DNA of 37,941 nucleotides from a virus (lineage: Duplodnaviria; Caudoviricetes): IMG/VR virus record IMGVR_UViG_3300030708_001092, positions 1 to 37,941 of that record. One strand, written 5' to 3'. Shown here in pieces: positions 1 to 37,941 of this stretch. Below the pieces are notes generated by a model. The model made no database searches. It saw only the letters and a program-made list of their open reading frames with translations, and was not told the DNA's origin. The translations under genes and the position numbers were made by a program. The first letter of the stretch is position 1, and each line of letters starts with the position of its first letter.

Positions 1-21
1 AATTTTTTTTTTTTTTTTTTT
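1..21. repeat. AA+T19 tract matching the right end (circularisation/assembly break)
   Basis: The window starts AAT19 and ends AAT27. Confidence 0.8.
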
Positions 22-85
22 GAAAAAATTTTTTTTCCAGATTTTTTTTATTCTCAATTATAAAAATTATTGAGAATAGGTAATT

Positions 86-936: not shown

Positions 937-964
937 TTTTTTTGGAAGGTAAAAAGGAAGGTAA

Positions 965-988
965 AAACGTAGTTATAAAACTACGTTT
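965..988 (-). terminator. Perfect 10-bp hairpin overlapping the stop of ORF 973-1395
   Basis: AAACGTAGTT-ATAA-AACTACGTTT. Confidence 0.4.
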
Positions 989-1395
989 ATTGTTTTAATA
1001 AACTTGCAAGGTTTCTTGCCAAGTTTACCTGACTTTAAAATAGGCATAATCTCGCCTACTCTCTCACAGTTCCACCCATGAGCTTTTGAAACATCATAAA
1101 GATTTACTGGACATACATACTCTTTAGGAAATTTAAAAAGATGTTTCCATGATCTCTTTGTATTTTTCGCAGCTCTGGAGGCGATAACCTCGAGAGTAAC
1201 TTTGTCTGTTAATTCAGCAGTAGCCCATGAACTACCACCAGAAATAAAAACAATGCCTAAAATTTGTTTAGTCATATGGAAGGAAGGAAGGATAAATTTT
1301 CTAGTTTCTTTTTTTGTATTTCCTTTTGTGTTTACCAGATAGACAAATTCTAAAATCTGTTTACCTGATAACCATTTTTGGAAATCCTCAAGCAT
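973..1395 (-). CDS. Hypothetical protein, first gene of the leftward early unit
   Basis: 140 aa ORF downstream of a promoter-like region. Confidence 0.7.
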   Translation of the reverse strand: MLEDFQKWLSGKQILEFVYLVNTKGNTKKETRKFILPSFHMTKQILGIVFISGGSSWATAELTDKVTLEVIASRAAKNTKRSWKHLFKFPKEYVCPVNLYDVSKAHGWNCERVGEIMPILKSGKLGKKPCKFIKTINVVL

Positions 1396-16130: not shown

Positions 16131-16755
16131 ATTAAAGCTATATGGAGAATTGGCTAAATTTGTAGGCCATAAAGAGTTTGAAGTAAAAGTGCACAATTTA
16201 CCTCAAGCTATTAGTTTTTTAGTAAATAATTTTCCAGAAGTTGAAGCATATATGAACCCCAAACTTTATCAAGTAAAAATTGGTAATTATGAAATAAATA
16301 AAGATGAAATAAATTATCCAATAGGACAGCAGGATATTCATATTGTTCCAGTAATCCAAGGAGCAGGAGGCGGCTTTGGTCGTTTTCTTACGGGAGCATT
16401 TCTAATTGGTGCGTCATTCTTTTTCCCAGGAGCAGGATTGTTTGGAACTACTGGATTATTTGGTGCTGGTGCTGCTGGCGTTGTTGGTGTTTCGTCAACA
16501 GGTGTATTACTTGGAACAGCTATAGGTACAGGACTAAGTGCTATTGGTGCTGGTATGGTTCTTTCAGGTGTTGGCGAAATGTTATTTCCAACTCAACAGC
16601 CTACATTTGAAGATAATCCACAAATTTCGTTTAACTTTGCTGGTACGCAAAACACAGCAAGGGCTGGTACTCCAATTCCTATTGTTTATGGTGAAATATT
16701 TACAGGATCAGTTGTTATTAGTGGTGATGTAGATACAGAAGCGGTACAAGTATGA
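16120..16755 (+). CDS. Tail tip assembly protein (gpI-like, ubiquitin-like N-domain)
   Basis: KLYGEL, IHIVPVIQGAGG, GTPIPIVYGE. Confidence 0.92.
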   Translation: MLRKLKLYGELAKFVGHKEFEVKVHNLPQAISFLVNNFPEVEAYMNPKLYQVKIGNYEINKDEINYPIGQQDIHIVPVIQGAGGGFGRFLTGAFLIGASFFFPGAGLFGTTGLFGAGAAGVVGVSSTGVLLGTAIGTGLSAIGAGMVLSGVGEMLFPTQQPTFEDNPQISFNFAGTQNTARAGTPIPIVYGEIFTGSVVISGDVDTEAVQV

Positions 16756-19700
16756 CTAACAGCAAGTATATACAAGGATCAGGCGGTGGCGGTTGTTTTA
16801 CTGGTGATACTCCTGTATCTATTCCAAGTGGTTCAAAACCAATAAAAGAAATAAATGTTGGTGATATTGTTTGCAGTTTCGATGATAAAGGTACTATTTA
16901 TCATGCCAAAGTTTTAAAGGTACATGAGCATGAAAACGAACCAGTTGTTAAGTACACAATCTGGGGTGGTAAAACTTTAGATGCAACACCGAATCATTGG
17001 GTATTAAATCAATTTAATGCGTTTGTTGGTATAGATACTTTAGGAACTGATGATTGTTTAGTTGATGAATTTGGTCATTTAAGACCAATTATTGAACGTA
17101 AAGCTATTGGAACACATACTGTTTACAACTTAACTGTTGAAGGACATCATACTTTTATTGCTAATACAATTCGTGTTCATAATGCAGGATTAGGGCCAAA
17201 TATCGCTGGTGCTGGTGGTGGAGGTAAAAAAGGAGGTGGAGGTAGTCCTCCGACTATTACTCCAGATAATTTACATAGTAAGCAGTTTGCTACTTTACTT
17301 GATCTTATTTCTGAAGGTGAGATTGAAGGTTTTTCAAGTCCATCAAAAGAAGGTAGAACTAAAGGAACGACTGCATATTTTAATGCTGCAAAGAAAGATA
17401 TTTTTTTAGATGATACCCCTATATTGGCTGCTACTGCTGATTCGACTAATCCACAAAATACTGAATTTAATCATCAAAATGTAGATTTTGACGTACGTTT
17501 TGGAACCACTTCTCAAACTAAAATGTCAAAAGTTTCGGGAAGTTCTTCTGTTTTCAATGTTGGATTAGAAGTCTCAAATGGTGTACCTGTAACTAGACAG
17601 CTTACTAATAATACGGATCTTGATGCAGTAAAAGTTACTCTTACTGCACCTCTTTTACAACAAATGGAAGATGATGGAGATATTGTAGGTTCTTCGATAA
17701 GTTTTGATATTCAACTTCAGTACAATGGCGGTGGTTTCACAACATTAGTTTCTGATACGATCAGAGGACGAACAGCAGATGCTTATAACAGAGAATATAG
17801 AATTGATCTTACAGGTGCTCATCCTGTTGATGTTCGTGTCGTAAAAACATCTGCAAATAGTACAGACAAAATATCACGAGATTTAATTTGGCAATCTTTT
17901 TCAGAATTAGAAGATGATTCAAGCACATATCCTGATTGTGCATATACAAGATTACGTTTAGATTCAGAATTTTTTAGTAGGATTCCTGATAGAAAATTTA
18001 AAATTAGAGGAGTAAAAGTAAGGATTCCAGGTGCAGGAGCTAACTCATCTGGTACTCCAACTGTAGATTTACAAACTGGAAGAGTTGTTTATCCTGCTGG
18101 TTATATTTTTAATGGTGTAATGGGTGCTGCTCAATGGACAACGTGCCCTGCTCTAATATTGCTGGATCTTTTAACTAACACTAGATATGGGTTAGGTAAT
18201 CATATTGTTGACAGTAATTTAGATTTATTTTCTTTTGTAACTGCAAGTAAGTTTTCAAATGAGCTTGTTGATGATGGATTTGGTGGACAGGAAGCTAGAT
18301 TTGCTTGCAACATAAATATCCAGACAAGTGTTGAGGCATTTGATGTTATAAGAACTTTGTCAGGAATAATGAGATGTATGCCAATTTGGTCTGAAGGAGC
18401 ATTACTTCTTACTCAAGATAGTCCAAAAGATCCAAGTTATTTATTTACTTTGGCTAATGTCGGACAAGAAGGGTTTAGTTATACAGGTAGCAGTTTGAAA
18501 ACTAGAGCTACAGTTGTTGCAGTCTCTTTTTTCAATATGGAGACTAGAGATTTAGATTTTGAGGAAGTTGAGGCAGAAACAGCTTATAAAAATAAATATG
18601 GACATAATTTGAAAAGAGTTAAAGCATTAGGTTGTACAAGTAGAGGTCAAGCAAGAAGATTTGCAAAAGCAATATTATTTACAGAACAAAGAGAAACAGA
18701 AGTAGTTAATTTCTCTGCTTCAATGGAATCAGGAGTAGTTGTTAGACCTGGAACGATTATTAGTGTTGCCGATCCAGCAAGATCAGGTGTAAGAAGAGGG
18801 GGAAGGATTGCTAGTGCTACAACAACTCAAATAACTGTAGATAATTCGGATGCAACTGATTTAACTGCTGACAATAATCCTAAATTAAGTGTAATACTAC
18901 CAAATGGGACAGTTGAGACTAAAAATATAACTGCAATATCAGGTAAAGTAATTACTTTGGCTAGTGCTTTAAGTCAAACACCAAATTCTAATAGTGTCTG
19001 GTTACTTGAAAATGATACTGTTTCTGCTCAGTCTTTCAGAGTTATGTCTGTTGAAGAATTTGATGGAATTAATTACAAAATAACAGCATTAGCTTATGTA
19101 AATGAAAAATATGCGTTTATCGAAGATAACCAACCAATTCCAGTACAACAGATAACAACTTTAAATCTTCTCAAACCACCTCCTAGTGGTTTATCAGCTA
19201 ATGAAACTATAGTCCTTATAAATAATCAACCTGTATCTAAATTAATTATTAGATGGCAGCCTGTAACTGGTGTTTCAAATTATTTAGTTAATTATAGATT
19301 TAAAGATAATAATGTTGTCTCTGCTACAACCAGTAGTCCTGATTTTGAAATTATTAATTCACAAGTAGGATCTTATGAAGTATCTGTTCGCAGTTTAAAT
19401 GCTGCATTAGAAGCTAGTGCTACAGATGCTAGTGAAACTTTTACAACTATCGGAAAAACTGCTGTTCCTACTGATGTATCAGGTCTTACTGCTGAACCAA
19501 TAAGTGAAAAATTAGTAAGATTACGTTGGAATTTAGCAACAGATTTAGATGTTACTCATGGTGGTCGTGTATATGTTAGACATTCTTCAAAAACTGATGG
19601 AACGGGATCTTTTTCTAACGCTACTGATTTAATTCAGGCACTTTCAGGTAATACCACAACTGCGGAAGTTCCGTATCTTGAGGGTGAATATATTTTAAAA

Positions 19701-20600
19701 TTTCAAGATGATGGAGGTAGATTTAGTGCTGGTGAAGCAAGTGTAATTTTAGATTTACCAGATAATTTAGATGCAAAATTAATTCAGACAAGAAGAGAAG
19801 ATCAAGATGTACCTAAGTTTCAAGGAACAAAAACTAATGTTGCCTTTGATGCTACAACAAACTCTTTAAATTTAACTGGTGTTGGGCAGTTTGATAGTAT
19901 TACCGATTTAGATTTAGTTTCTTCTATAGATGATATTGGAGGCATTGCTCCGCTAGGTACTTATGAGTTTGGTGGATCGGCTGGAAGTACAACTTTAGAT
20001 TTAGGAGATGTATATAGCTTAGATTTAAAACGTCATTTTTTAACAGAAGCATTTTATCCATCTGATTTATTTGATTCAATACCAGACTTAGATGCAAGAG
20101 GTGATTTTGAAGGATTAACTGCAACAAAAGTAAATGCAACTATGCAAGTTCGAGTTACTCAGGATGATCCGAATAGTGGATCTCCTACATACACCGCTTT
20201 TCAAACTTTTGCAAATGGAGTTTATAAAGGAAGAGGTTTTCAATTTAAAGTCAATTTAACAAGTAATGATCCAGCACAAGATATTAGAGTATTTCAGTTA
20301 GGATATACAGCTACTCTTCACAGAAGAACTGAACAAAGTGCTGAAACTATAGCAAGTGGAGCAGGAGCAAAGGCAGTTACGTTCCAACATCCTTTCTTTA
20401 CAGGGACTTCTGGGCTTGGGGGTGTAAATAGTAGTTTGCCTTCTGTTGGTATTACAGCTTATAATATGGCATCAGGAGATTTCTTCGAGGTTACTAATGT
20501 TACTGGAACAGGATTTAGTGTTCACTTCAAAAATTCATCAAATAATTCAGTTGATAGAAATTTTACATATCAAGCTGTCGGATTTGGTAAAGCAAGTTAG
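16752..20600 (+). CDS. Central tail fibre/host specificity protein (gpJ-like) with N-terminal Hint domain
   Basis: DNLHS, LDLISEGEIEG, RYGLG, GCTSRGQARR, FN3-like repeats. Confidence 0.95.
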   Translation: MTNSKYIQGSGGGGCFTGDTPVSIPSGSKPIKEINVGDIVCSFDDKGTIYHAKVLKVHEHENEPVVKYTIWGGKTLDATPNHWVLNQFNAFVGIDTLGTDDCLVDEFGHLRPIIERKAIGTHTVYNLTVEGHHTFIANTIRVHNAGLGPNIAGAGGGGKKGGGGSPPTITPDNLHSKQFATLLDLISEGEIEGFSSPSKEGRTKGTTAYFNAAKKDIFLDDTPILAATADSTNPQNTEFNHQNVDFDVRFGTTSQTKMSKVSGSSSVFNVGLEVSNGVPVTRQLTNNTDLDAVKVTLTAPLLQQMEDDGDIVGSSISFDIQLQYNGGGFTTLVSDTIRGRTADAYNREYRIDLTGAHPVDVRVVKTSANSTDKISRDLIWQSFSELEDDSSTYPDCAYTRLRLDSEFFSRIPDRKFKIRGVKVRIPGAGANSSGTPTVDLQTGRVVYPAGYIFNGVMGAAQWTTCPALILLDLLTNTRYGLGNHIVDSNLDLFSFVTASKFSNELVDDGFGGQEARFACNINIQTSVEAFDVIRTLSGIMRCMPIWSEGALLLTQDSPKDPSYLFTLANVGQEGFSYTGSSLKTRATVVAVSFFNMETRDLDFEEVEAETAYKNKYGHNLKRVKALGCTSRGQARRFAKAILFTEQRETEVVNFSASMESGVVVRPGTIISVADPARSGVRRGGRIASATTTQITVDNSDATDLTADNNPKLSVILPNGTVETKNITAISGKVITLASALSQTPNSNSVWLLENDTVSAQSFRVMSVEEFDGINYKITALAYVNEKYAFIEDNQPIPVQQITTLNLLKPPPSGLSANETIVLINNQPVSKLIIRWQPVTGVSNYLVNYRFKDNNVVSATTSSPDFEIINSQVGSYEVSVRSLNAALEASATDASETFTTIGKTAVPTDVSGLTAEPISEKLVRLRWNLATDLDVTHGGRVYVRHSSKTDGTGSFSNATDLIQALSGNTTTAEVPYLEGEYILKFQDDGGRFSAGEASVILDLPDNLDAKLIQTRREDQDVPKFQGTKTNVAFDATTNSLNLTGVGQFDSITDLDLVSSIDDIGGIAPLGTYEFGGSAGSTTLDLGDVYSLDLKRHFLTEAFYPSDLFDSIPDLDARGDFEGLTATKVNATMQVRVTQDDPNSGSPTYTAFQTFANGVYKGRGFQFKVNLTSNDPAQDIRVFQLGYTATLHRRTEQSAETIASGAGAKAVTFQHPFFTGTSGLGGVNSSLPSVGITAYNMASGDFFEVTNVTGTGFSVHFKNSSNNSVDRNFTYQAVGFGKAS
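16794..17183 (+). other. Hint (intein-like/BIL) domain, 130 aa, no homing endonuclease
   Basis: CFTGDTPV (block A), TPNH (block B), VYNLTVEGHHTFIAN-RVHN (blocks F/G); +1 residue is Ala. Confidence 0.92.
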
Positions 20601-24968: not shown

Positions 24969-25189
24969 TGATCTTTGGATTTATAAAAAAGCTAGTCAAA
25001 TATTATATAGATAAGTTAATACATTGGATGCGTATGACTAAATTTAATTTAGAGCTAGATAATGACATAAAAAAATATCACGAAGAATTAGATAAAAAAG
25101 TAAAAAAACCAAAAATTATAGAAAAAGGTACTTTTGGAGAAGATGGTTGGTCTATTTCTATTGGAGATGTAGAAGATGGAGATTCGTGA
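24968..25189 (+). CDS. Hypothetical protein
   Basis: 73 aa, translationally coupled. Confidence 0.65.
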   Translation: MIFGFIKKLVKYYIDKLIHWMRMTKFNLELDNDIKKYHEELDKKVKKPKIIEKGTFGEDGWSISIGDVEDGDS

Positions 25190-25811
25190 GATAAAGATAC
25201 CAAAGATCCCACAGATCAATGTTAATACTTATATTTCTACTCCATTACCAAATCTGAATGTACCTTTACCAAATATAGATTTACCTGGGTGCGTCAAAAC
25301 TCATAGAGATGCGAGTGTAAAAAATACACAAATAATTGAAGATGATGTTAATGGAGCGTTTTATAGCTGTCCAGAAGGCAAGATACCTTCTTTCGTTCCA
25401 ATAAATTATGATAGAAAAAAAATTGAAATTGTAGAGCAGAAACAAGAAAAGCCTGTTAACAACGCTAATATTCCAGAACCTAAGACACCTGAGATTCCCG
25501 ATATTCCAAAAGAAAAGGAAGCTATAAAAATAGAACCCTGCCCAGGTAAGAAAGATCAGCGAGTTGGAGACTTTCGTAACGAAAAAAGATTAGAACGTGT
25601 CATTGGGCATGAAAGAGGTGATGATGGGATTGAGTGCATTACTCTATATGAAAACGTTCCTTTTGTGGATCAATACATCCCAGAACCGAGCACTATTGTT
25701 TCTACTGCTGTTATCGGTCTTGTGGCTGCGAGTAGCCCTCTTATTCTCAATATAATCAAACCAGCTATAAAAAATATCGTAAAGAAACTTACAAAGAAGA
25801 AAGATAAATAA
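25176..25811 (+). CDS. Cys-containing protein with C-terminal membrane anchor
   Basis: LPGCV, ECITLYE, TM STAVIGLVAASSPLIL plus basic tail. Confidence 0.75.
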   Translation: MEIREIKIPKIPQINVNTYISTPLPNLNVPLPNIDLPGCVKTHRDASVKNTQIIEDDVNGAFYSCPEGKIPSFVPINYDRKKIEIVEQKQEKPVNNANIPEPKTPEIPDIPKEKEAIKIEPCPGKKDQRVGDFRNEKRLERVIGHERGDDGIECITLYENVPFVDQYIPEPSTIVSTAVIGLVAASSPLILNIIKPAIKNIVKKLTKKKDK

Positions 25812-27269
25812 TTAAGCTGCTTGACTACCAACAACAAATACAGGTTGATACCATCTCATTTTTCGTTCCTTTCGGTTTTTGCCTTTAAGAACTGTATGCC
25901 AATGACCTCTTCTCCAATGAGGTCGTATCTTTCTAGTATTTCCTGATATAACAAAATCTTCTTCATTTATTTTTGGTTTTAATTTTATTACTCTGCGTGT
26001 AAAATCTTTTCCGACCCAACATATTGCACTTGGTTTGATTGGAGATTGAACTTTATATTTTTTCTGTATATCAATAACTTTTGAAGGTATATATTCTTCT
26101 GTAATTATGTCTGGTTGTTGATTCATTAACAGAAGTAAATTAACAACTGTATGAAATTGATCTTCAAAACATCTTATCTCTTCTTCAGAATATGGATCTT
26201 TACGAAGTTTATTCATTTCAGAAAATTTTGGCATTTTTAAATCTTTCCAACTAAATGCAAAATAAAGAATTTTATCAGGATCTATCACAAAGTTCACATA
26301 TACATCATGTATTTGTGAAAAACTTTCTGGTTCTTCATCTAACTTACTACCTTTTAACGACCATTTATGACACTCAATAAAAGAATATTTTATACGATTT
26401 ATATTATTTGAATTTAATAAAAAGAAACTAGGATTAACTATATTAGGTCTTTCAGATAATTTTAGATTGTCAATATTAGTATTTATCAGAGAATTACATA
26501 GATCATCTTTTAAATAGTAAGCTGGTGAATTGTATATGTACTGTTGATTTCTATATGAACAATTAATGTGTTCTCTTGCTAGGTCTTGCCAAGAATAAAA
26601 GTTTTGTGGAGATTTATATTTGTATAAAAATTGTCCTCTCGTAATTTTAGCTTTCTCAACTTTTTTTATAACTTTTTCTTCTATTTGTTCTTTTTTACGT
26701 CTTTCAGCAAAAGCAGCACTTAGATCTTTTCTTCTTTTCTGATTATTAATTTTAGGTAATTCATTTGGATTATTGACAGTTACCCATTTTCTGCCGACTT
26801 TCATATGTAGATTACCTGTATTTGGATTAATCCATAAATCCCCTTCTTTAGCATCACCTCTACGTTCAACTATTTTTCTCTCATTAGTTTCTTCTTTGAC
26901 AGTATAAAGATTTGAATCTTGTGTATTAAAGAATAATTGTCCTGCTAATTTTCCTTCTTCAAATGATATATTTTCTTCCATAGAAATATTTTGACCAGAA
27001 GGAGTAGTAATAGTAGGTTTATTTTTATAACTTCTTATTTTTGGATTCTCCCCCTTAAACATCCCACCTCTTTTTTTGTATTCTTTTTTTATCCAAGCAT
27101 TTGCATAGGCTGACGGATATACATTAAATTTCTTCTTTGCCTCTCTTTTTAATCTTTTTAATAACGATTCGTTTTGACATCTACCTTTAAATACTGCAAA
27201 TTTTAGAGCAGCTTCATATTCTACTTTTGATAATTTTCTGCCCTTATCAAATTTGGCTGGTTTTACCAT
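25812..27269 (-). CDS. Chimeric 485 aa moron-like protein
   Basis: N-terminal YPSAYANAW domain; C-terminal RPHWRRGHW motif; own promoter. Confidence 0.8.
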   Translation of the reverse strand: MVKPAKFDKGRKLSKVEYEAALKFAVFKGRCQNESLLKRLKREAKKKFNVYPSAYANAWIKKEYKKRGGMFKGENPKIRSYKNKPTITTPSGQNISMEENISFEEGKLAGQLFFNTQDSNLYTVKEETNERKIVERRGDAKEGDLWINPNTGNLHMKVGRKWVTVNNPNELPKINNQKRRKDLSAAFAERRKKEQIEEKVIKKVEKAKITRGQFLYKYKSPQNFYSWQDLAREHINCSYRNQQYIYNSPAYYLKDDLCNSLINTNIDNLKLSERPNIVNPSFFLLNSNNINRIKYSFIECHKWSLKGSKLDEEPESFSQIHDVYVNFVIDPDKILYFAFSWKDLKMPKFSEMNKLRKDPYSEEEIRCFEDQFHTVVNLLLLMNQQPDIITEEYIPSKVIDIQKKYKVQSPIKPSAICWVGKDFTRRVIKLKPKINEEDFVISGNTRKIRPHWRRGHWHTVLKGKNRKERKMRWYQPVFVVGSQAA

Positions 27270-27294
27270 TGGAAGGTTTAGTTATATAATTGTT

Positions 27295-27323
27295 ATATTA
27301 GAAGTATATAATATTTATGTCAA
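27295..27323 (-). promoter_or_regulatory. Sigma70 promoter of the 485 aa gene
   Basis: TTGACA-17 nt-TAATAT. Confidence 0.75.
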
Positions 27324-27371
27324 TTAGACATCATAATTAGTGCATAATTAAAACATTTGATATAATAAATA

Positions 27372-27431
27372 CAAGCCGTGAGACTTGGCTTAAGTAGATA
27401 AGTTACTTGGAAGGGGCTTATCTACTTTTTA
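27372..27431 (+). ncRNA. Candidate small RNA 1 (two hairpins)
   Basis: Extended -10 TGaTATAAT (27358-27366); AAGCC/GGCTT hairpin; 11-bp AAGTAGATAAG/CTTATCTACTT stem plus T-run. Confidence 0.5.
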
Positions 27432-27447
27432 TTATGTATAATAAAAA

Positions 27448-27516
27448 AACCCTATTCGACAAGGCAATGGATGGGGTGTCTAGGTAGACAAGTTTTCAGC
27501 CCGTGCTTGTCTACTG
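27448..27516 (+). ncRNA. Candidate small RNA 2 (two hairpins)
   Basis: TATAAT 27437-27442; ACCCTATTC/GGATGGGGT and GTAGACAAG/CTTGTCTAC stems. Confidence 0.4.
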
Positions 27517-28296
27517 CCTTAATTTATGAGTATGTGGAATAACTTGATTTGCTTTTGGTACTAAGTAAACATCCTTGCAAATATTAAAAAATGGACTATC
27601 CGTAGTCAACATTATGCCTTCTTGTTTTAATTTTCCACATTCACGGATTCGTGCAATCTGCCAATCAAGTCTTTTATTCTCAAGAACTTGTTTTTGTATA
27701 GAAATCTGTGTATCGGCAGCAGATTTACATTGATTCTGAAATCCTCTATCTAAAGGAATACTAAACGTAGCCGATATTCCAAAATTCAAAGCATAGCTAT
27801 CTTTATTCGTTCCAGAATAATTTTTTTGATTAAAAAGGACATTACCTGGGTTATCTGGCACACCATCGTCATTAGCATCTGTTGGATCGTAGAAAGGTGT
27901 TTCATAATAATCCCGATAAGGTTTTAAATAGTTTGCTCCAAAAGTGGTGAATGGGCTAATGGATAGGGTCGGCCCTTGACATACAATATTTCCTCCATAC
28001 TGATTAGTCGTCATATTCCCCGTCAAGGTTTGTACAGCCATATTCGTTACCGAGCCATTATTTGATTGCGAAACAGCATTGGCTAAAACCTGTGCAGGAG
28101 ATAACAGAATTACTGAGAGAACACTGAGGTACTTGTGACTACGCTTGTTGACTCTATATTTCTTTGAATTACTGTTACGTTTGAAACTCCACCTGGGCCA
28201 CGATAACTTTCTGTAAATTGAAATGCGTTCCCAGAAGTTTGATCGGCTAGAGTAAATACTGGCTTGTTGTTTGATGATAAATCTAGCCCTGTCCAT
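27511..28296 (-). CDS. Conserved cyanophage-type secreted/outer-membrane protein (start uncertain)
   Basis: GSVTNMAVQ, CQGPTL, GISATFSIPLD, RLDWQIARIRECG. Confidence 0.75.
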   Translation of the reverse strand: MDRARFIIKQQASIYSSRSNFWERISIYRKLSWPRWSFKRNSNSKKYRVNKRSHKYLSVLSVILLSPAQVLANAVSQSNNGSVTNMAVQTLTGNMTTNQYGGNIVCQGPTLSISPFTTFGANYLKPYRDYYETPFYDPTDANDDGVPDNPGNVLFNQKNYSGTNKDSYALNFGISATFSIPLDRGFQNQCKSAADTQISIQKQVLENKRLDWQIARIRECGKLKQEGIMLTTDSPFFNICKDVYLVPKANQVIPHTHKLRQ

Positions 28297-32152: not shown

Positions 32153-32232
32153 CTTTTAGTCCACTCTGAGATAAGTTTTCTTAGCTCCTCAATACGTTTT
32201 TGAGCAGCTTGTATTCTTTCTTGTTTTGTCAT
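32149..32232 (-). CDS. Tiny helical peptide (27 aa)
   Basis: MTKQERIQAAQKRIEELRKLISEWTKR, overlapping both neighbours' start/stop. Confidence 0.6.
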   Translation of the reverse strand: MTKQERIQAAQKRIEELRKLISEWTKR

Positions 32233-32924
32233 TAAAACAATTCCTGTTCTGATTCAAACTTATCCCATGCTTTTTGCCATGCAGCTTCGCATCTCTCTGT
32301 GGGTTGATCAATGTTCATAATACATCTACCTTCAAACGCCCAGATTGTATTACATACATCTGGTCTTAAATCGTAGTTTAGTTTCAACATTTCAACGTAG
32401 CAACCAAGTTGTTTATCAGTTGAGTATGGTTCTTTCCAATACATATCAAGATCCTCGATATATAACAAACCATCTTTCTTTCTCTTTCGCATGAAATAAT
32501 CACAGCTACTTTTTGTTTTCAAGTCAATCAATCTAATCTGTTTGGTCTTAGTGTCATAGCCAAGTAGATCAAGTTGACCGCCAACTGATTTATCAGGGAT
32601 CGACATCATATGTTCAACTGCCATCGGTTCAAAATGTGTGAACAATTCATGTTGAAGTAAAGGTTCAACCCATGCACCATATTCATCAGGATCAATTTTG
32701 CCATTACCTAACATATGTTCAGCTAGACATTCATGGCACTTTTCTCCTCTGGGTTGCCATTGTGACCTCCATTTCTCGATATTTTCTTTATCTTCTTCAG
32801 ATAATTCACTACAGACTTGAGTAGTTGAATAAGACATCCATTGTTTAGTCTCTGTATTTACATATCTGTGTGTATTTTCATCTCTTTTGATTGGAAGAGG
32901 TTTTAAAAGTTGGAAGGTTTTCAT
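32232..32924 (-). CDS. PD-(D/E)XK exonuclease
   Basis: HRY..STT, RGEKCH, AVE, GGQLDLL, LIDLKT, QLGCY. Confidence 0.85.
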   Translation of the reverse strand: MKTFQLLKPLPIKRDENTHRYVNTETKQWMSYSTTQVCSELSEEDKENIEKWRSQWQPRGEKCHECLAEHMLGNGKIDPDEYGAWVEPLLQHELFTHFEPMAVEHMMSIPDKSVGGQLDLLGYDTKTKQIRLIDLKTKSSCDYFMRKRKKDGLLYIEDLDMYWKEPYSTDKQLGCYVEMLKLNYDLRPDVCNTIWAFEGRCIMNIDQPTERCEAAWQKAWDKFESEQELF

Positions 32925-32926
32925 TT

Positions 32927-33187
32927 TTAAAAGTCGTAAGTTGGAAGGTCTTTAGGATCAATAATTTCTATTGTTTCCTTTTTTGGTTTGGGTGCTTTTA
33001 CCCTAGCAAGATTTTGGTATTTGACACCTTGATAACCTTGCGGAAATAAAGGATTGCCTTTGCAATCATTCACTACTTCTGTCCATCCTGGGGGAGGTTT
33101 ATCAATATCTTCCAAACTCCAATAGCCTTTTTTAATACCATCCTTAATAGTTTTTATTAAAGATGCCTGATCAAACATTCTTTCCAT
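32927..33187 (-). CDS. Conserved hypothetical protein
   Basis: GIKKGYWSLEDIDKPPPG. Confidence 0.7.
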   Translation of the reverse strand: MERMFDQASLIKTIKDGIKKGYWSLEDIDKPPPGWTEVVNDCKGNPLFPQGYQGVKYQNLARVKAPKPKKETIEIIDPKDLPTYDF

Positions 33188-33702
33188 TATTTTTTCTCCA
33201 TATAATCTTTAGCGGTCTTACCAAGTTCAGCAAGTGTTGGAACTATTTCCTGATCACTGGCTTTGAAATACTTAGGTTTAAATTGTGGTTCTTCTGGTTT
33301 GTAACCCTTCTTAACTGGATATATATCCTTCCAGCCATTACTGATTGCCTTCTCAAGAGCTTCTTTTCTATCTTGTGATGGAAATGACCTGAGAGTTTGA
33401 AAGATACGTCTAGCGACCCTTGTAGAGTTGATTGCACCTTTTTTCTTTCTAATAGGCCACCATTCTTCAATTAATTCAGCACAATCTTTTAAATCATCTG
33501 GTACTAAATCTGTTGTAATTGTGCTAAATCCATAAAGATCCATAGGTATGGCCTCTCTTGGTTTTCTTTTCGCAGCAGATTTCATCTTCTGTTTAAGAAT
33601 TAGACGAATGTACTGTGGAATTGTTAATTCTTCTCCTCTAGCTCCATTCAAATAAGTATGAAGATCGGAATCTAACCAAACACAAACTTTAGTTTTTTCC
33701 AT
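33187..33702 (-). CDS. Putative replication initiator: RHH N-domain + helical C-domain
   Basis: KTKVCVWLDSDL...IPQYIRLIL; EEWW...ALEKAISNGWKDI. Confidence 0.55.
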   Translation of the reverse strand: MEKTKVCVWLDSDLHTYLNGARGEELTIPQYIRLILKQKMKSAAKRKPREAIPMDLYGFSTITTDLVPDDLKDCAELIEEWWPIRKKKGAINSTRVARRIFQTLRSFPSQDRKEALEKAISNGWKDIYPVKKGYKPEEPQFKPKYFKASDQEIVPTLAELGKTAKDYMEKK

Positions 33703-33769: not shown

Positions 33770-33885
33770 ATTCTTTTCCTTATTCTTATATGTATATATA
33801 TTTATAATATATATATATATATATAATTTATTTATTTATTTATATATATTCTTTTTCTTTTTGGTTCTTTTTCTTTTTCTTTTTG
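33770..33885. repeat. (AT)n and T-tract low-complexity region, candidate replication origin
   Basis: About 60 bp almost purely A/T, flanked by pyrimidine tracts, between divergent promoters. Confidence 0.5.
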
Positions 33886-37387: not shown

Positions 37388-37417
37388 AAAAAAAAAAGAG
37401 TCTTTATTAAGACTCTT
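37388..37417 (-). terminator. Intrinsic terminator
   Basis: AAGAGTCTT-tatt-AAGACTCTT with an A10 run on the left. Confidence 0.75.
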
Positions 37418-37793
37418 CTAAACTATGTATTAATAAATCTCTTTTATCTTCGTCTAGATATTCATTATAGAATCTAGTAAATAAATTATATGTATCATTA
37501 TTAAATAAAATTTCTTCACCCAAAATATAAGCCAACATATTAGCTACATTTTCAGAGCTGGTTAAATCTGTTGAGACTTGGCCAAAATTACTTTGTTCAT
37601 ATTCTTTTATTTTTTCAATAGCATTAAAAATACTATCTTTTTTTAACCATTGTTCCGCCTTATAATATCCGATTATAAAATAATCTTGATTTAATAAATA
37701 ATGATGTAAATCACTAATATGTTCATTAAGTCCGACATCTTCATTAAGTTGTTGAATGATGTAATTTTTTACATCTTCTTTTAAAGTTTCCAT
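37407..37793 (-). CDS. Monocistronic acidic helical early protein
   Basis: DLHHYLLNQDYFIIGYYKAEQWL...NMLAYILGEEIL. Confidence 0.8.
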   Translation of the reverse strand: METLKEDVKNYIIQQLNEDVGLNEHISDLHHYLLNQDYFIIGYYKAEQWLKKDSIFNAIEKIKEYEQSNFGQVSTDLTSSENVANMLAYILGEEILFNNDTYNLFTRFYNEYLDEDKRDLLIHSLEES

Positions 37794-37912: not shown

Positions 37913-37941
37913 AATTTTTTTTTTTTTTTTTTTTTTTTTTT
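37913..37941. repeat. AA+T27 tract matching the left end
   Basis: Direct observation. Confidence 0.8.

What the first reader, a model, noticed from the sequence alone, without database searches (positions are those of the whole stretch)
27358..27516. Two tandem, structurally homologous candidate sRNAs with a compensatory base change
Seen: two units, each TATAAT, a 5' hairpin and a long hairpin. The long stems are homologous (GTAGATAAG/CTTATCTAC versus GTAGACAAG/CTTGTCTAC, a T-A to C-G covariation) while the loops differ. Inference: a mini-array of sRNAs with a constant scaffold and variable loops, transcribed divergently from the 485 aa gene. They could be antisense regulators, antitoxins or guides.
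Basis: partly seen in the sequence, partly recalled or inferred. Interest (0 to 1): 0.72.

Follow-up and report, generated by a model that had tools for sequence, protein, structure and literature searches.

The report
Anti-leader small RNAs of Prochlorococcus phages
An ocean virus that likely infects Prochlorococcus carries two likely small-RNA genes in a swappable row of such units; the tip of the first matches an 8-letter tag at the starts of several of the virus's own early genes, and tip and tags occur together across relatives, so it would likely silence those genes by base pairing, though no transcript has been observed.

Summary
In detail: two TATAAT boxes, each followed by a 5' hairpin and a long hairpin with homologous stems. 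Relatives show compensatory changes and only plus-strand G-U wobbles, so the fold belongs to plus-strand RNA, not to terminators of the leftward operon.

The reading needs correcting. Loops differ between units but are the conserved part within each family (unit 1 UUGGAAGGG, unit 2 CCCGU). The units sit in a variable cassette between two convergent genes, which can hold a dozen other RNA modules, and they are not tied to the 485-aa gene.

Unit 1's loop complements CCUUCCAA, found at start codons of the phage's own leftward genes: the 485-aa AcrVA2-like gene, exonuclease, helicase and others, about ten families. Among exonuclease starts, CCUUCC is present in 18 of 21 from unit-1 phages and 0 of 8 from phages lacking the seed. 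No host starts with the tag were found in the part examined.

Best reading: a trans-acting antisense RNA, working like P1 c4, that dampens translation of an early-gene set. Unit 2's target is unknown. There is no Rfam match and no usable RNA data, and the independent lineage contrasts number only about three.

The parts
27358..27366 (+). extended -10 box (TG-n-TATAAT) of unit 1, predicted promoter
   Evidence: box conserved in 33 aligned copies
27372..27430 (+). unit 1, predicted ~59-nt small RNA: 5' hairpin, 11-bp terminal stem, U tail (start site inferred from spacing)
27407..27414 (+). unit-1 loop seed UUGGAAGG, complement of the CCUUCCAA start-region tag
27437..27442 (+). -10 box of unit 2, predicted promoter
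   Evidence: TAnnnT box before the 33 long-form copies listed
27448..27523 (+). unit 2, predicted ~70-75-nt small RNA: 5' hairpin, linker, terminal stem with CCCGUG loop, weak U tail; 3' end antisense to the stop codon of the 261-aa gene
27500..27505 (+). conserved unit-2 loop motif CCCGUG, partner unknown
27269..27276 (-). predicted target site CCUUCCAA at -7, overlapping the AUG of the 485-aa gene
25812..27269 (-). 485-aa gene with AcrVA2-like C-terminal HxRxxH motif; an insert at this junction and one predicted target
27295..27323 (-). TTGACA-17-TAATAT promoter-like site of the inserted leftward gene, divergent from unit 1
   Evidence: -35 box conserved in relatives
32941..32948 (-). predicted target site at -24 of the exonuclease gene (32232-32924)
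32910..32917 (-). second predicted target site at +7 of the exonuclease gene
942..949 (-). predicted target site at -13 of the 64-aa gene (742-936)
1277..1291 (-). repeated CCUU/CCUUCCA (7-mer site at -8) before the likely start (1275) of a 100-aa gene
27511..28296 (-). 261-aa cyanophage gene (phrog_848) that bounds the cassette on the right
25176..25811 (+). 211-aa gene (phrog_570) that bounds the cassette on the left in relatives without an insert

Best explanation
The region holds two hairpin units that are likely small RNA genes read on the plus strand, and the loop of unit 1 is complementary to an 8-base tag at the start codons of several of the phage's own leftward genes, so it would likely pair with those start regions and block their translation. 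Shown by sequence and comparison: the folds, their strand, the loop conservation, the complementarity, and the co-occurrence of loop and tag. Inferred: transcription from host sigma-70-type -10 boxes, loop-to-single-strand pairing without Hfq (MED4 lacks Hfq, PMC2518516 passage), repression rather than activation, and a role in pacing or restraining early genes (exonuclease, helicase, AcrVA2-like protein) or in silencing an incoming relative. Unit 2 is likely a second small RNA of the same build with another, unidentified partner; it may double as terminator of the rightward late transcript.
For: Strand: unit-1 stems gave 217 Watson-Crick, 14 G-U and 0 A-C cells of 231; unit-2-pattern stems gave 522, 36 and 0 of 558 (the patterns allowed G-U and A-C equally). 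The plus strand folds better in 33 of 33 and 23 of 23 copies. Unit 1 has 7 of 17 pairs with two-sided changes and 98% of cells paired. Target: the four tag-bearing genes rank 1-4 of 67 window start regions for pairing with the loop; 8-bp duplex -10.5 kcal/mol, seed opening cost 2.3, mRNA sites nearly open. In 17 unit-1 records 18 of 612 start regions carry CCTTCCAA against 1 site in 274 kb of coding sequence; in 26 records without unit 1, 0 of 960 against 7 in 517 kb; CCTTCCA ranks 3 of 6462 7-mers for start-region enrichment. Metagenome loci: 10 of 474 starts against 1 in 200 kb (partly the same phages). Twelve protein clusters carry CCTTCCA near the start, ten on the strand opposite the unit. 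Exonuclease starts: CCTTCC in 18 of 21 (CCTTCCA in 14) with unit 1, 0 of 6 without, 0 of 2 with a changed seed. L654 has an exonuclease 82% identical to the window's and the same upstream D-L-P peptide, lacks unit 1, and uses a synonymous codon that breaks the tag. 485-aa homologues beside unit 1 have the tag in 4 of 4 leaders, those elsewhere in 0 of 16.
Against: No transcript, start site or strand was observed (searches gave contigs only). The phages are related: the exonuclease tree shows one split between unit-1 and no-unit-1 clades plus one seed-variant pair, and L654 adds a third contrast, so the counts are not independent. A family-level test was weak: CCTTCC in 8 of 103 families against 18 of 773 control windows, p=0.007 uncorrected, rank 179 of 3639; CCTTCCA 4 of 103, p=0.056. 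The 'no unit 1' group includes records that cover few early genes and three whose junction was not in the fetched part. The seed variant UUGAGAAGG has no compensating CCUUCUCA at starts (0 in 82 start regions), so there is no two-sided seed-target change. 485-aa homologues at other places in unit-1 phages (G005, G199, G209, G212) lack the tag. An 8-bp seed is short. No phage target emerged for unit 2.
Confidence: 0.62

Rival explanations
1. CCUUCCAA is the binding site of a phage or host protein (a translational regulator or a DNA operator), and the hairpin carries the same motif as a decoy or operator on the minus strand rather than as an antisense seed.
For: Explains the co-occurrence of motif and hairpin equally well. 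The minus strand of unit 1 also folds with CCCUUCCAA in the loop (-17.5 kcal/mol). Several sites are repeated in tandem.
Against: All wobble pairs fit the plus strand (14 against 0), and the -10 box and U tail are on the plus strand. The sites are non-palindromic, always on the sense strand, and placed relative to start codons (-27 to +15), including genes inside operons.
Confidence: 0.13
2. The hairpins are only intrinsic terminators, mainly of the rightward late transcript, duplicated by recombination; loop and tag match through shared descent.
For: The minimal state is one unit-2 hairpin in a 49-nt gap between convergent genes. Plus-strand polarity fits ending the 211-aa gene's transcript. 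The scan found a minus-strand terminator-like site at 27387-27372. Few independent contrasts.
Against: Each unit has its own conserved -10 box, even inside the end of the 211-aa gene. Loops are kept while stems change. Unit 2's U tail is poor. Shared descent does not explain the tag at about ten unrelated gene starts and its near absence from coding sequence.
Confidence: 0.1
3. The RNAs act mainly on host mRNAs or host small RNAs, as a Yfr1/Yfr10-like unit in the same cassette of relatives would. This is the most likely reading for unit 2.
For: L170 and L177 carry the Yfr1 motif in a cassette unit with a related terminal stem (motif and its targets in PMC2518516 and PMC6778093, passages). No phage target was found for unit 2.
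Against: For unit 1, none of the 10 host matches to CCTTCCA-N0-6-ATG in G001 is a plausible gene start, and there was no enrichment in 414 called starts from 400 kb of that 1.7-Mb genome. No unit-2 seed enrichment there either.
Confidence: 0.08
4. Unit 1 is a dedicated antitoxin of the 485-aa gene, or the units are guides for a phage protein such as Vipr.
For: The best predicted duplex is with the 485-aa leader. The gene has the AcrVA2 motif tied to mRNA destruction. A Vipr homologue occupies the same insertion site in relatives.
Against: Unit 1 occurs mostly without the 485-aa gene and the gene mostly without unit 1 beside it. The units lack GGY/NN repeats and occur without Vipr. Loops are conserved, not spacer-like.
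Confidence: 0.04
5. Unit 1 pairs with the tag but activates translation, for example by standing in for a missing Shine-Dalgarno contact.
For: The tag often sits at -7 to -13, where a Shine-Dalgarno sequence would be, and the seed GGAAGG resembles one. One seed-variant phage has GGAAGG in its exonuclease leader instead.
Against: Sites overlapping the AUG and at +7 to +15 would block, not help, ribosome loading (established knowledge of bacterial sRNAs). The mRNA sites are unstructured, so there is nothing to open.
Confidence: 0.03

Closest known systems
c4 antisense RNA of phages P1 and P7 (PMC12197685, passage read)
   Same: Phage-encoded, trans-acting small RNA whose short complementary sequences lie in loops and pair near the ribosome-binding site of phage mRNA to block translation.
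   Different: No sequence or Rfam similarity. c4 acts on the ant mRNA; unit 1's tag stands at about ten unrelated early-gene starts. Here each unit has its own -10 box in a swappable array; no antirepressor target and no integrase-sized unassigned gene were seen in the window.
Yfr1/Yfr10/Yfr18 small RNAs of Prochlorococcus (PMC2518516, PMC6778093, passages read)
   Same: Short Hfq-independent RNAs with a conserved single-stranded motif between or on hairpins, pairing with many mRNAs. A unit with the Yfr1 motif occurs in the same cassette of two relatives.
   Different: Units 1 and 2 lack the Yfr1 motif, gave no Rfam hit, and were not found on host contigs among 150 Prochlorococcus genomes searched.
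P22 sar, lambda OOP and S-PM2 CfrI antisense RNAs (PMC12197685, passages)
   Same: Phage RNAs that control phage gene expression by pairing.
   Different: As that review describes them, each acts on one gene (ant, cII, psbA), and OOP and CfrI are classed as cis-encoded. Unit 1 does not overlap its predicted targets and pairs through an 8-nt seed; only unit 2's 3' end overlaps a gene.
VIPR vrRNA (bioRxiv 10.64898/2026.04.26.720920, passages read)
   Same: Non-coding RNA next to a phage conflict locus; a Vipr homologue is inserted beside unit 1 in relatives (E 3.8e-17 to SUSP1 Vipr).
   Different: Units have no GGY/NN tandem repeats and occur without Vipr; the window has no Vipr at this site.
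Candidate structured RNAs from IMG/VR (PMC10690425; passages and table rows read)
   Same: Thirteen catalogue entries list Prochlorococcus as host, for example DNAVirus_447 (72 nt, 220 sequences, terminator call), which could be one of these units.
   Different: The alignments could not be read, so identity was not tested. The table columns seen give no target or function.

Membership tests
Any Rfam family (includes C4, Yfr and cyanophage motifs, as recalled) | Covariance-model score at the gathering threshold | tested here: not met
   0 hits in the window; best E 0.27, far below threshold; 0 in 20 relatives' loci; 0 at E<=0.5 in 11 loci
Trans-acting antisense sRNA of the c4 type (works-like) | Short seed displayed in a conserved loop | tested here: met
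   TGGAAGG inside a hairpin of at least 8 bp in 99 of 111 junction occurrences
Trans-acting antisense sRNA of the c4 type (works-like) | Complementary sites at translation starts of non-overlapping phage genes | tested here: met
Trans-acting antisense sRNA of the c4 type (works-like) | Compensatory change of seed and target together | tested here: inconclusive
   Seed-variant phages lack the tag but show no compensating tag in 82 start regions of 3 records
Trans-acting antisense sRNA of the c4 type (works-like) | Discrete transcript that represses translation | not testable with these tools
   Only assembled contigs were available
Yfr1/Yfr10 family | Undecanucleotide motif | tested here: not met
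   Absent from units 1 and 2; present in another unit in 2 of 229 junctions
Type I or III toxin-antitoxin antitoxin | Stable genetic pairing with one toxin gene | tested here: not met
   Neighbours vary and each part occurs without the other
VIPR guide RNA | Alternating GGY/NN tandem repeats with a vipr gene | tested here: not met
   No such repeats in units 1 and 2; definition
Intrinsic terminator of the leftward operon | Hairpin that folds on the minus strand, followed by a U run | tested here: not met
   0 of 50 wobble cells fit the minus strand; the long stems have no minus-strand U run; only the reversed 5' hairpin of unit 1 passes the scan
AcrVA2/FinQ protein family (485-aa gene) | C-terminal HxRxxH residues | tested here: met
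   36-residue match to 7CI1, E 0.0016; residues described; invariant in 25 aligned homologues
AcrVA2/FinQ protein family (485-aa gene) | Fold of the C-terminal domain and translation-coupled mRNA decay | not tested
   No structure prediction was run

The most novel reading that the evidence does not exclude
An abundant lineage of Prochlorococcus siphophages runs its early programme, and possibly its immunity against relatives, through a swappable array of a dozen or more promoter-bearing small RNAs. Unit 1 silences a regulon of the phage's own replication and conflict genes that acquired one 8-base tag independently, and gain, loss or change of the seed sets which phages can silence which.
Probability: 0.27. 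Interest if true: 0.82.

Novelty: new variant of a known kind. Interest (0 to 1): 0.66.

Why it matters
The phage antisense RNAs in the review read here act on single phage genes or on host RNAs. A phage RNA whose seed matches a tag shared by about ten of its own early genes would be regulon-level RNA control in a virus of the most abundant photosynthetic cell. It would give a concrete handle on how these phages, which show no integrase-sized gene in this window, time or restrain replication. The prediction is sharp and cheap to test with reporters. The surrounding cassette also offers about a dozen further structured-RNA families without an Rfam match, including a phage copy of the Yfr1 motif.

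Tried and rejected
Rfam: no family matched.

Expression: nine runs were listed, all held as contigs. RNA-library contigs touch the units, but contigs show neither strand, ends nor level, and may be DNA. A 66-nt contig in run X2 spans a unit-2 variant exactly, but that run's RNA status is a guess and module edges are natural assembly breaks, so it was not counted.

Unit-2 target: no enrichment of its complement at phage starts, no conserved site in gene families of 5 or more members, none in 414 host starts. The 5'-loop of unit 1 matches the start of gene 37407-37793 in the window, but the motif is not enriched in relatives (12 starts against 102 coding sites, ratio 1.0), so it was rejected.

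Host homologues: five weak BLAST hits (one is the phage contig, two shown are AT-rich matches, two were not displayed) and one model hit inside a glycogen-synthase-like gene (name from my reading of the protein) were treated as chance.

Annotated phage genomes: no match for the 485-aa protein and only a 29-nt match for the region.

Literature: searches listed no paper on these units; Lott et al. (PMC7368042, part of the text read) covers host RNAs only. The IMG/VR catalogue's alignments could not be read, so a prior listing without function is not excluded.

Earlier notes of this scan: nothing for this genome or sequence. The cassettes listed are a different, cis-antisense system.

Full report
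Setting. The window is a 37.9-kb virus record, 98% complete, with terminase, portal, major capsid and tail-tip genes running rightwards and exonuclease, Erf and initiator-like genes running leftwards. A relative with both units lies as a 41-kb contig in the single-cell genome of Prochlorococcus sp. AG-418-M08, and the flanking 261-aa gene matches 426 annotated phage records, almost all cyanophages. The host is therefore inferred to be Prochlorococcus.

Observation. Both units are present as described. The pair folds at -49 kcal/mol on the plus strand, z -4.4. Two such hairpins arose in 1 of 2000 shuffles of the region. No Rfam family matches.

Relatives. Pattern and protein searches gave 229 distinct junctions downstream of the 261-aa homologue. 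Of the 163 closed by the 211-aa gene, 147 have unit 2, 62 have unit 1 and 14 have neither. These are not population frequencies, because many loci were fetched by these patterns. The simplest state is one short unit 2 in a 49-nt gap, with a TAnnnT box inside the end of the 211-aa gene. Larger states add unit 1 in three 5' forms, about a dozen other modules, and inserted genes: the 485-aa gene, a VIPR-type operon, a three-gene rightward operon or a 300-aa gene.

Structure and strand. In 33 of the 38 distinct window-type unit-1 copies, 98.3% of cells pair and 7 of 17 pairs change on both sides; slid controls pair 28-57%. In 23 long-form unit-2 copies there is no two-sided change, only G-U tolerance, and the shuffle control is not exceeded; two-sided changes appear when the short form is included. 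Across 21 unit-1 and 62 unit-2-pattern stems (4 of the latter look like unrelated chance matches and were left in), 50 cells are G-U on the plus strand and none is A-C. Several stem positions were fixed by the search patterns, so their invariance means little, but the G-U/A-C contrast was free. The plus strand folds better in 56 of 56 aligned copies. This excludes the reading 'terminators of the leftward operon only', but not a second role in ending rightward transcripts. The stem is shared by at least three unit families, and short unit 2 often has unit 1's exact arms, so 'constant scaffold' is fair. The loops, however, are fixed within families: TGGAAGG sits in a hairpin loop in 99 of 111 junction occurrences, and CCGT is in 52 of 62 unit-2-pattern loops.

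Target of unit 1. The complement CCTTCCA(A) lies at the starts of four leftward window genes: overlapping the AUG of the 485-aa gene, at -24 and +7 of the exonuclease, at -13 of a 64-aa gene and at -8 of a 100-aa gene. These four rank first among 67 starts for pairing with the loop. The 8-bp duplex is -10.5 kcal/mol, the seed costs 2.3 to open and the mRNA sites 0.1-1.1. In 17 records with unit 1, 18 of 612 start regions carry the 8-mer against one site in 274 kb of coding sequence; in 26 records without it, 0 of 960 against 7 in 517 kb. The second group includes records with few early genes and three whose junction was not fetched. The metagenome loci gave 10 of 474 against one in 200 kb (54 of 118 loci had the full stem), partly the same phages. 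Twelve protein clusters carry the 7-mer near the start, among them an exonuclease, a helicase and a GP88 protein; two of the twelve lie on the unit's own strand, and one of those, a probable tail gene, may be chance. For exonuclease genes, 18 of 21 distinct starts from unit-1 phages have CCTTCC, and 0 of 8 from phages without the seed; the three exceptions have the tag on another gene. The -24 site lies in the last codons of the upstream gene. L654 keeps the same D-L-P peptide, has an exonuclease 82% identical to the window's, lacks unit 1 and uses a leucine codon that breaks the tag. 485-aa homologues have the tag in 4 of 4 leaders beside unit 1 and in 0 of 16 elsewhere. In the host genome G001 none of 10 chromosomal matches to the tag followed by ATG is a plausible start, and 414 called starts from 400 kb of 1.7 Mb show no enrichment, so it does not look like a general host leader.

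Results against. The contrasts are few once kinship is counted: one deep split, one seed-variant pair and L654. A family-level test was only modest (CCTTCC 8 of 103 families, p=0.007 uncorrected; CCTTCCA p=0.056), partly because it drops genes seen in few loci. Seed-variant phages lack the tag but show no compensating one. 485-aa homologues placed elsewhere in unit-1 phages lack the tag. No transcript was seen.

Unit 2. It has the same build and is the more widespread unit, but no partner was found among phage starts, phage coding regions or the sampled host starts. Its 3' end overlaps the stop codon of the 261-aa gene, so cis-antisense action, a host target, a protein partner or a terminator role remain open.

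Mechanism. Inferred: host RNA polymerase makes a ~59-nt RNA from the extended -10 box. Its terminal hairpin ends transcription and displays UUGGAAGG, which pairs with single-stranded CCUUCCAA between about -27 and +15 of target start codons and blocks ribosome loading, as is established for bacterial sRNAs that bind this window. The effect would be to limit replication, recombination and conflict proteins, including the AcrVA2-like protein (motif match), or to silence an incoming relative. Which of these applies depends on timing, which is unknown. Confidence 0.62.

Comparison. It would work like P1/P7 c4 RNA (PMC12197685, passages) but is not a member of any Rfam family. It is not a Yfr1-type RNA, though such a unit occurs in the cassette of two relatives, not a VIPR guide, and not a dedicated antitoxin. 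Models of both units found only the phage contig, plus one chance hit, in 150 Prochlorococcus genomes searched. Searches listed no description. The IMG/VR catalogue PMC10690425 has 13 Prochlorococcus-linked entries whose alignments I could not read, so a prior listing as an unassigned candidate is possible. Two unchecked notes of this scan describe similar anti-leader hairpins in a T7-like cyanophage and an actinophage; they were seen after the analysis, are not evidence, and suggest the pattern recurs.

Verdict. A real, conserved pair of likely small-RNA genes with a specific, testable target set for unit 1: a new variant of a known kind, interest 0.66.

Noticed in passing
p211/p261 junction of relatives, e.g. 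L250, L257, L164, L192, L249, L615, L014, L094, L012: About a dozen further structured modules occur at this junction, many behind their own -10 box or in tandem with a shared closing stem; several share an inner hairpin followed by CUCUG. Fourteen patterns were tried and 13 found copies. No Rfam hit.
   Followed up: partly
L170 and L177, last unit before the 261-aa homologue: A phage-borne unit with the Yfr1/Yfr10 undecanucleotide motif and a terminal stem related to units 1 and 2 (motif).
   Followed up: partly
L025:970-2849 (also L033, L057, L070, L071, L155, L273 and others): A VIPR-type locus replaces the 485-aa gene: Vipr homologue (E 3.8e-17 to SUSP1 Vipr), a 162-aa second gene, and about 750 nt of strand-biased non-coding DNA that by eye has a five-base rhythm without plain GGY repeats. 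Not analysed.
   Followed up: partly
window 25812-27269: AcrVA2-like C-terminal motif in a 485-aa protein from a phage of a host genus where a Cas12a target is not expected (my recollection); 250 homologues found, often placed among early genes. Target unknown.
   Followed up: partly
window 16752-20600: The tail-tip protein begins with a Hint/intein-like domain (Pfam hits at residues about 10-146).
   Followed up: no
window 33790-33850: Long TA-repeat tract just upstream of the gene with a replication-initiator-like match (33187-33702), a candidate origin.
   Followed up: no
L016, L026, L074, L386-L393: Seed-variant unit 1 with loop UUGAGAAGG; in most copies GGAAGGG or GGGAGGG sits paired in the 5' hairpin instead.
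   Followed up: partly
L121-L142, G169, G172: The clade without unit 1 uses a uniform TTAATTAAA leader before the exonuclease, Erf and 485-aa homologues, a possible alternative start-region tag.
   Followed up: no
window 965-988: A 10-bp hairpin directly upstream of the CCUUCC-rich leader of the 64-aa gene.
   Followed up: no
window 1-22 and 37915-37941: Both ends are long T runs, probably assembly edges.
   Followed up: no
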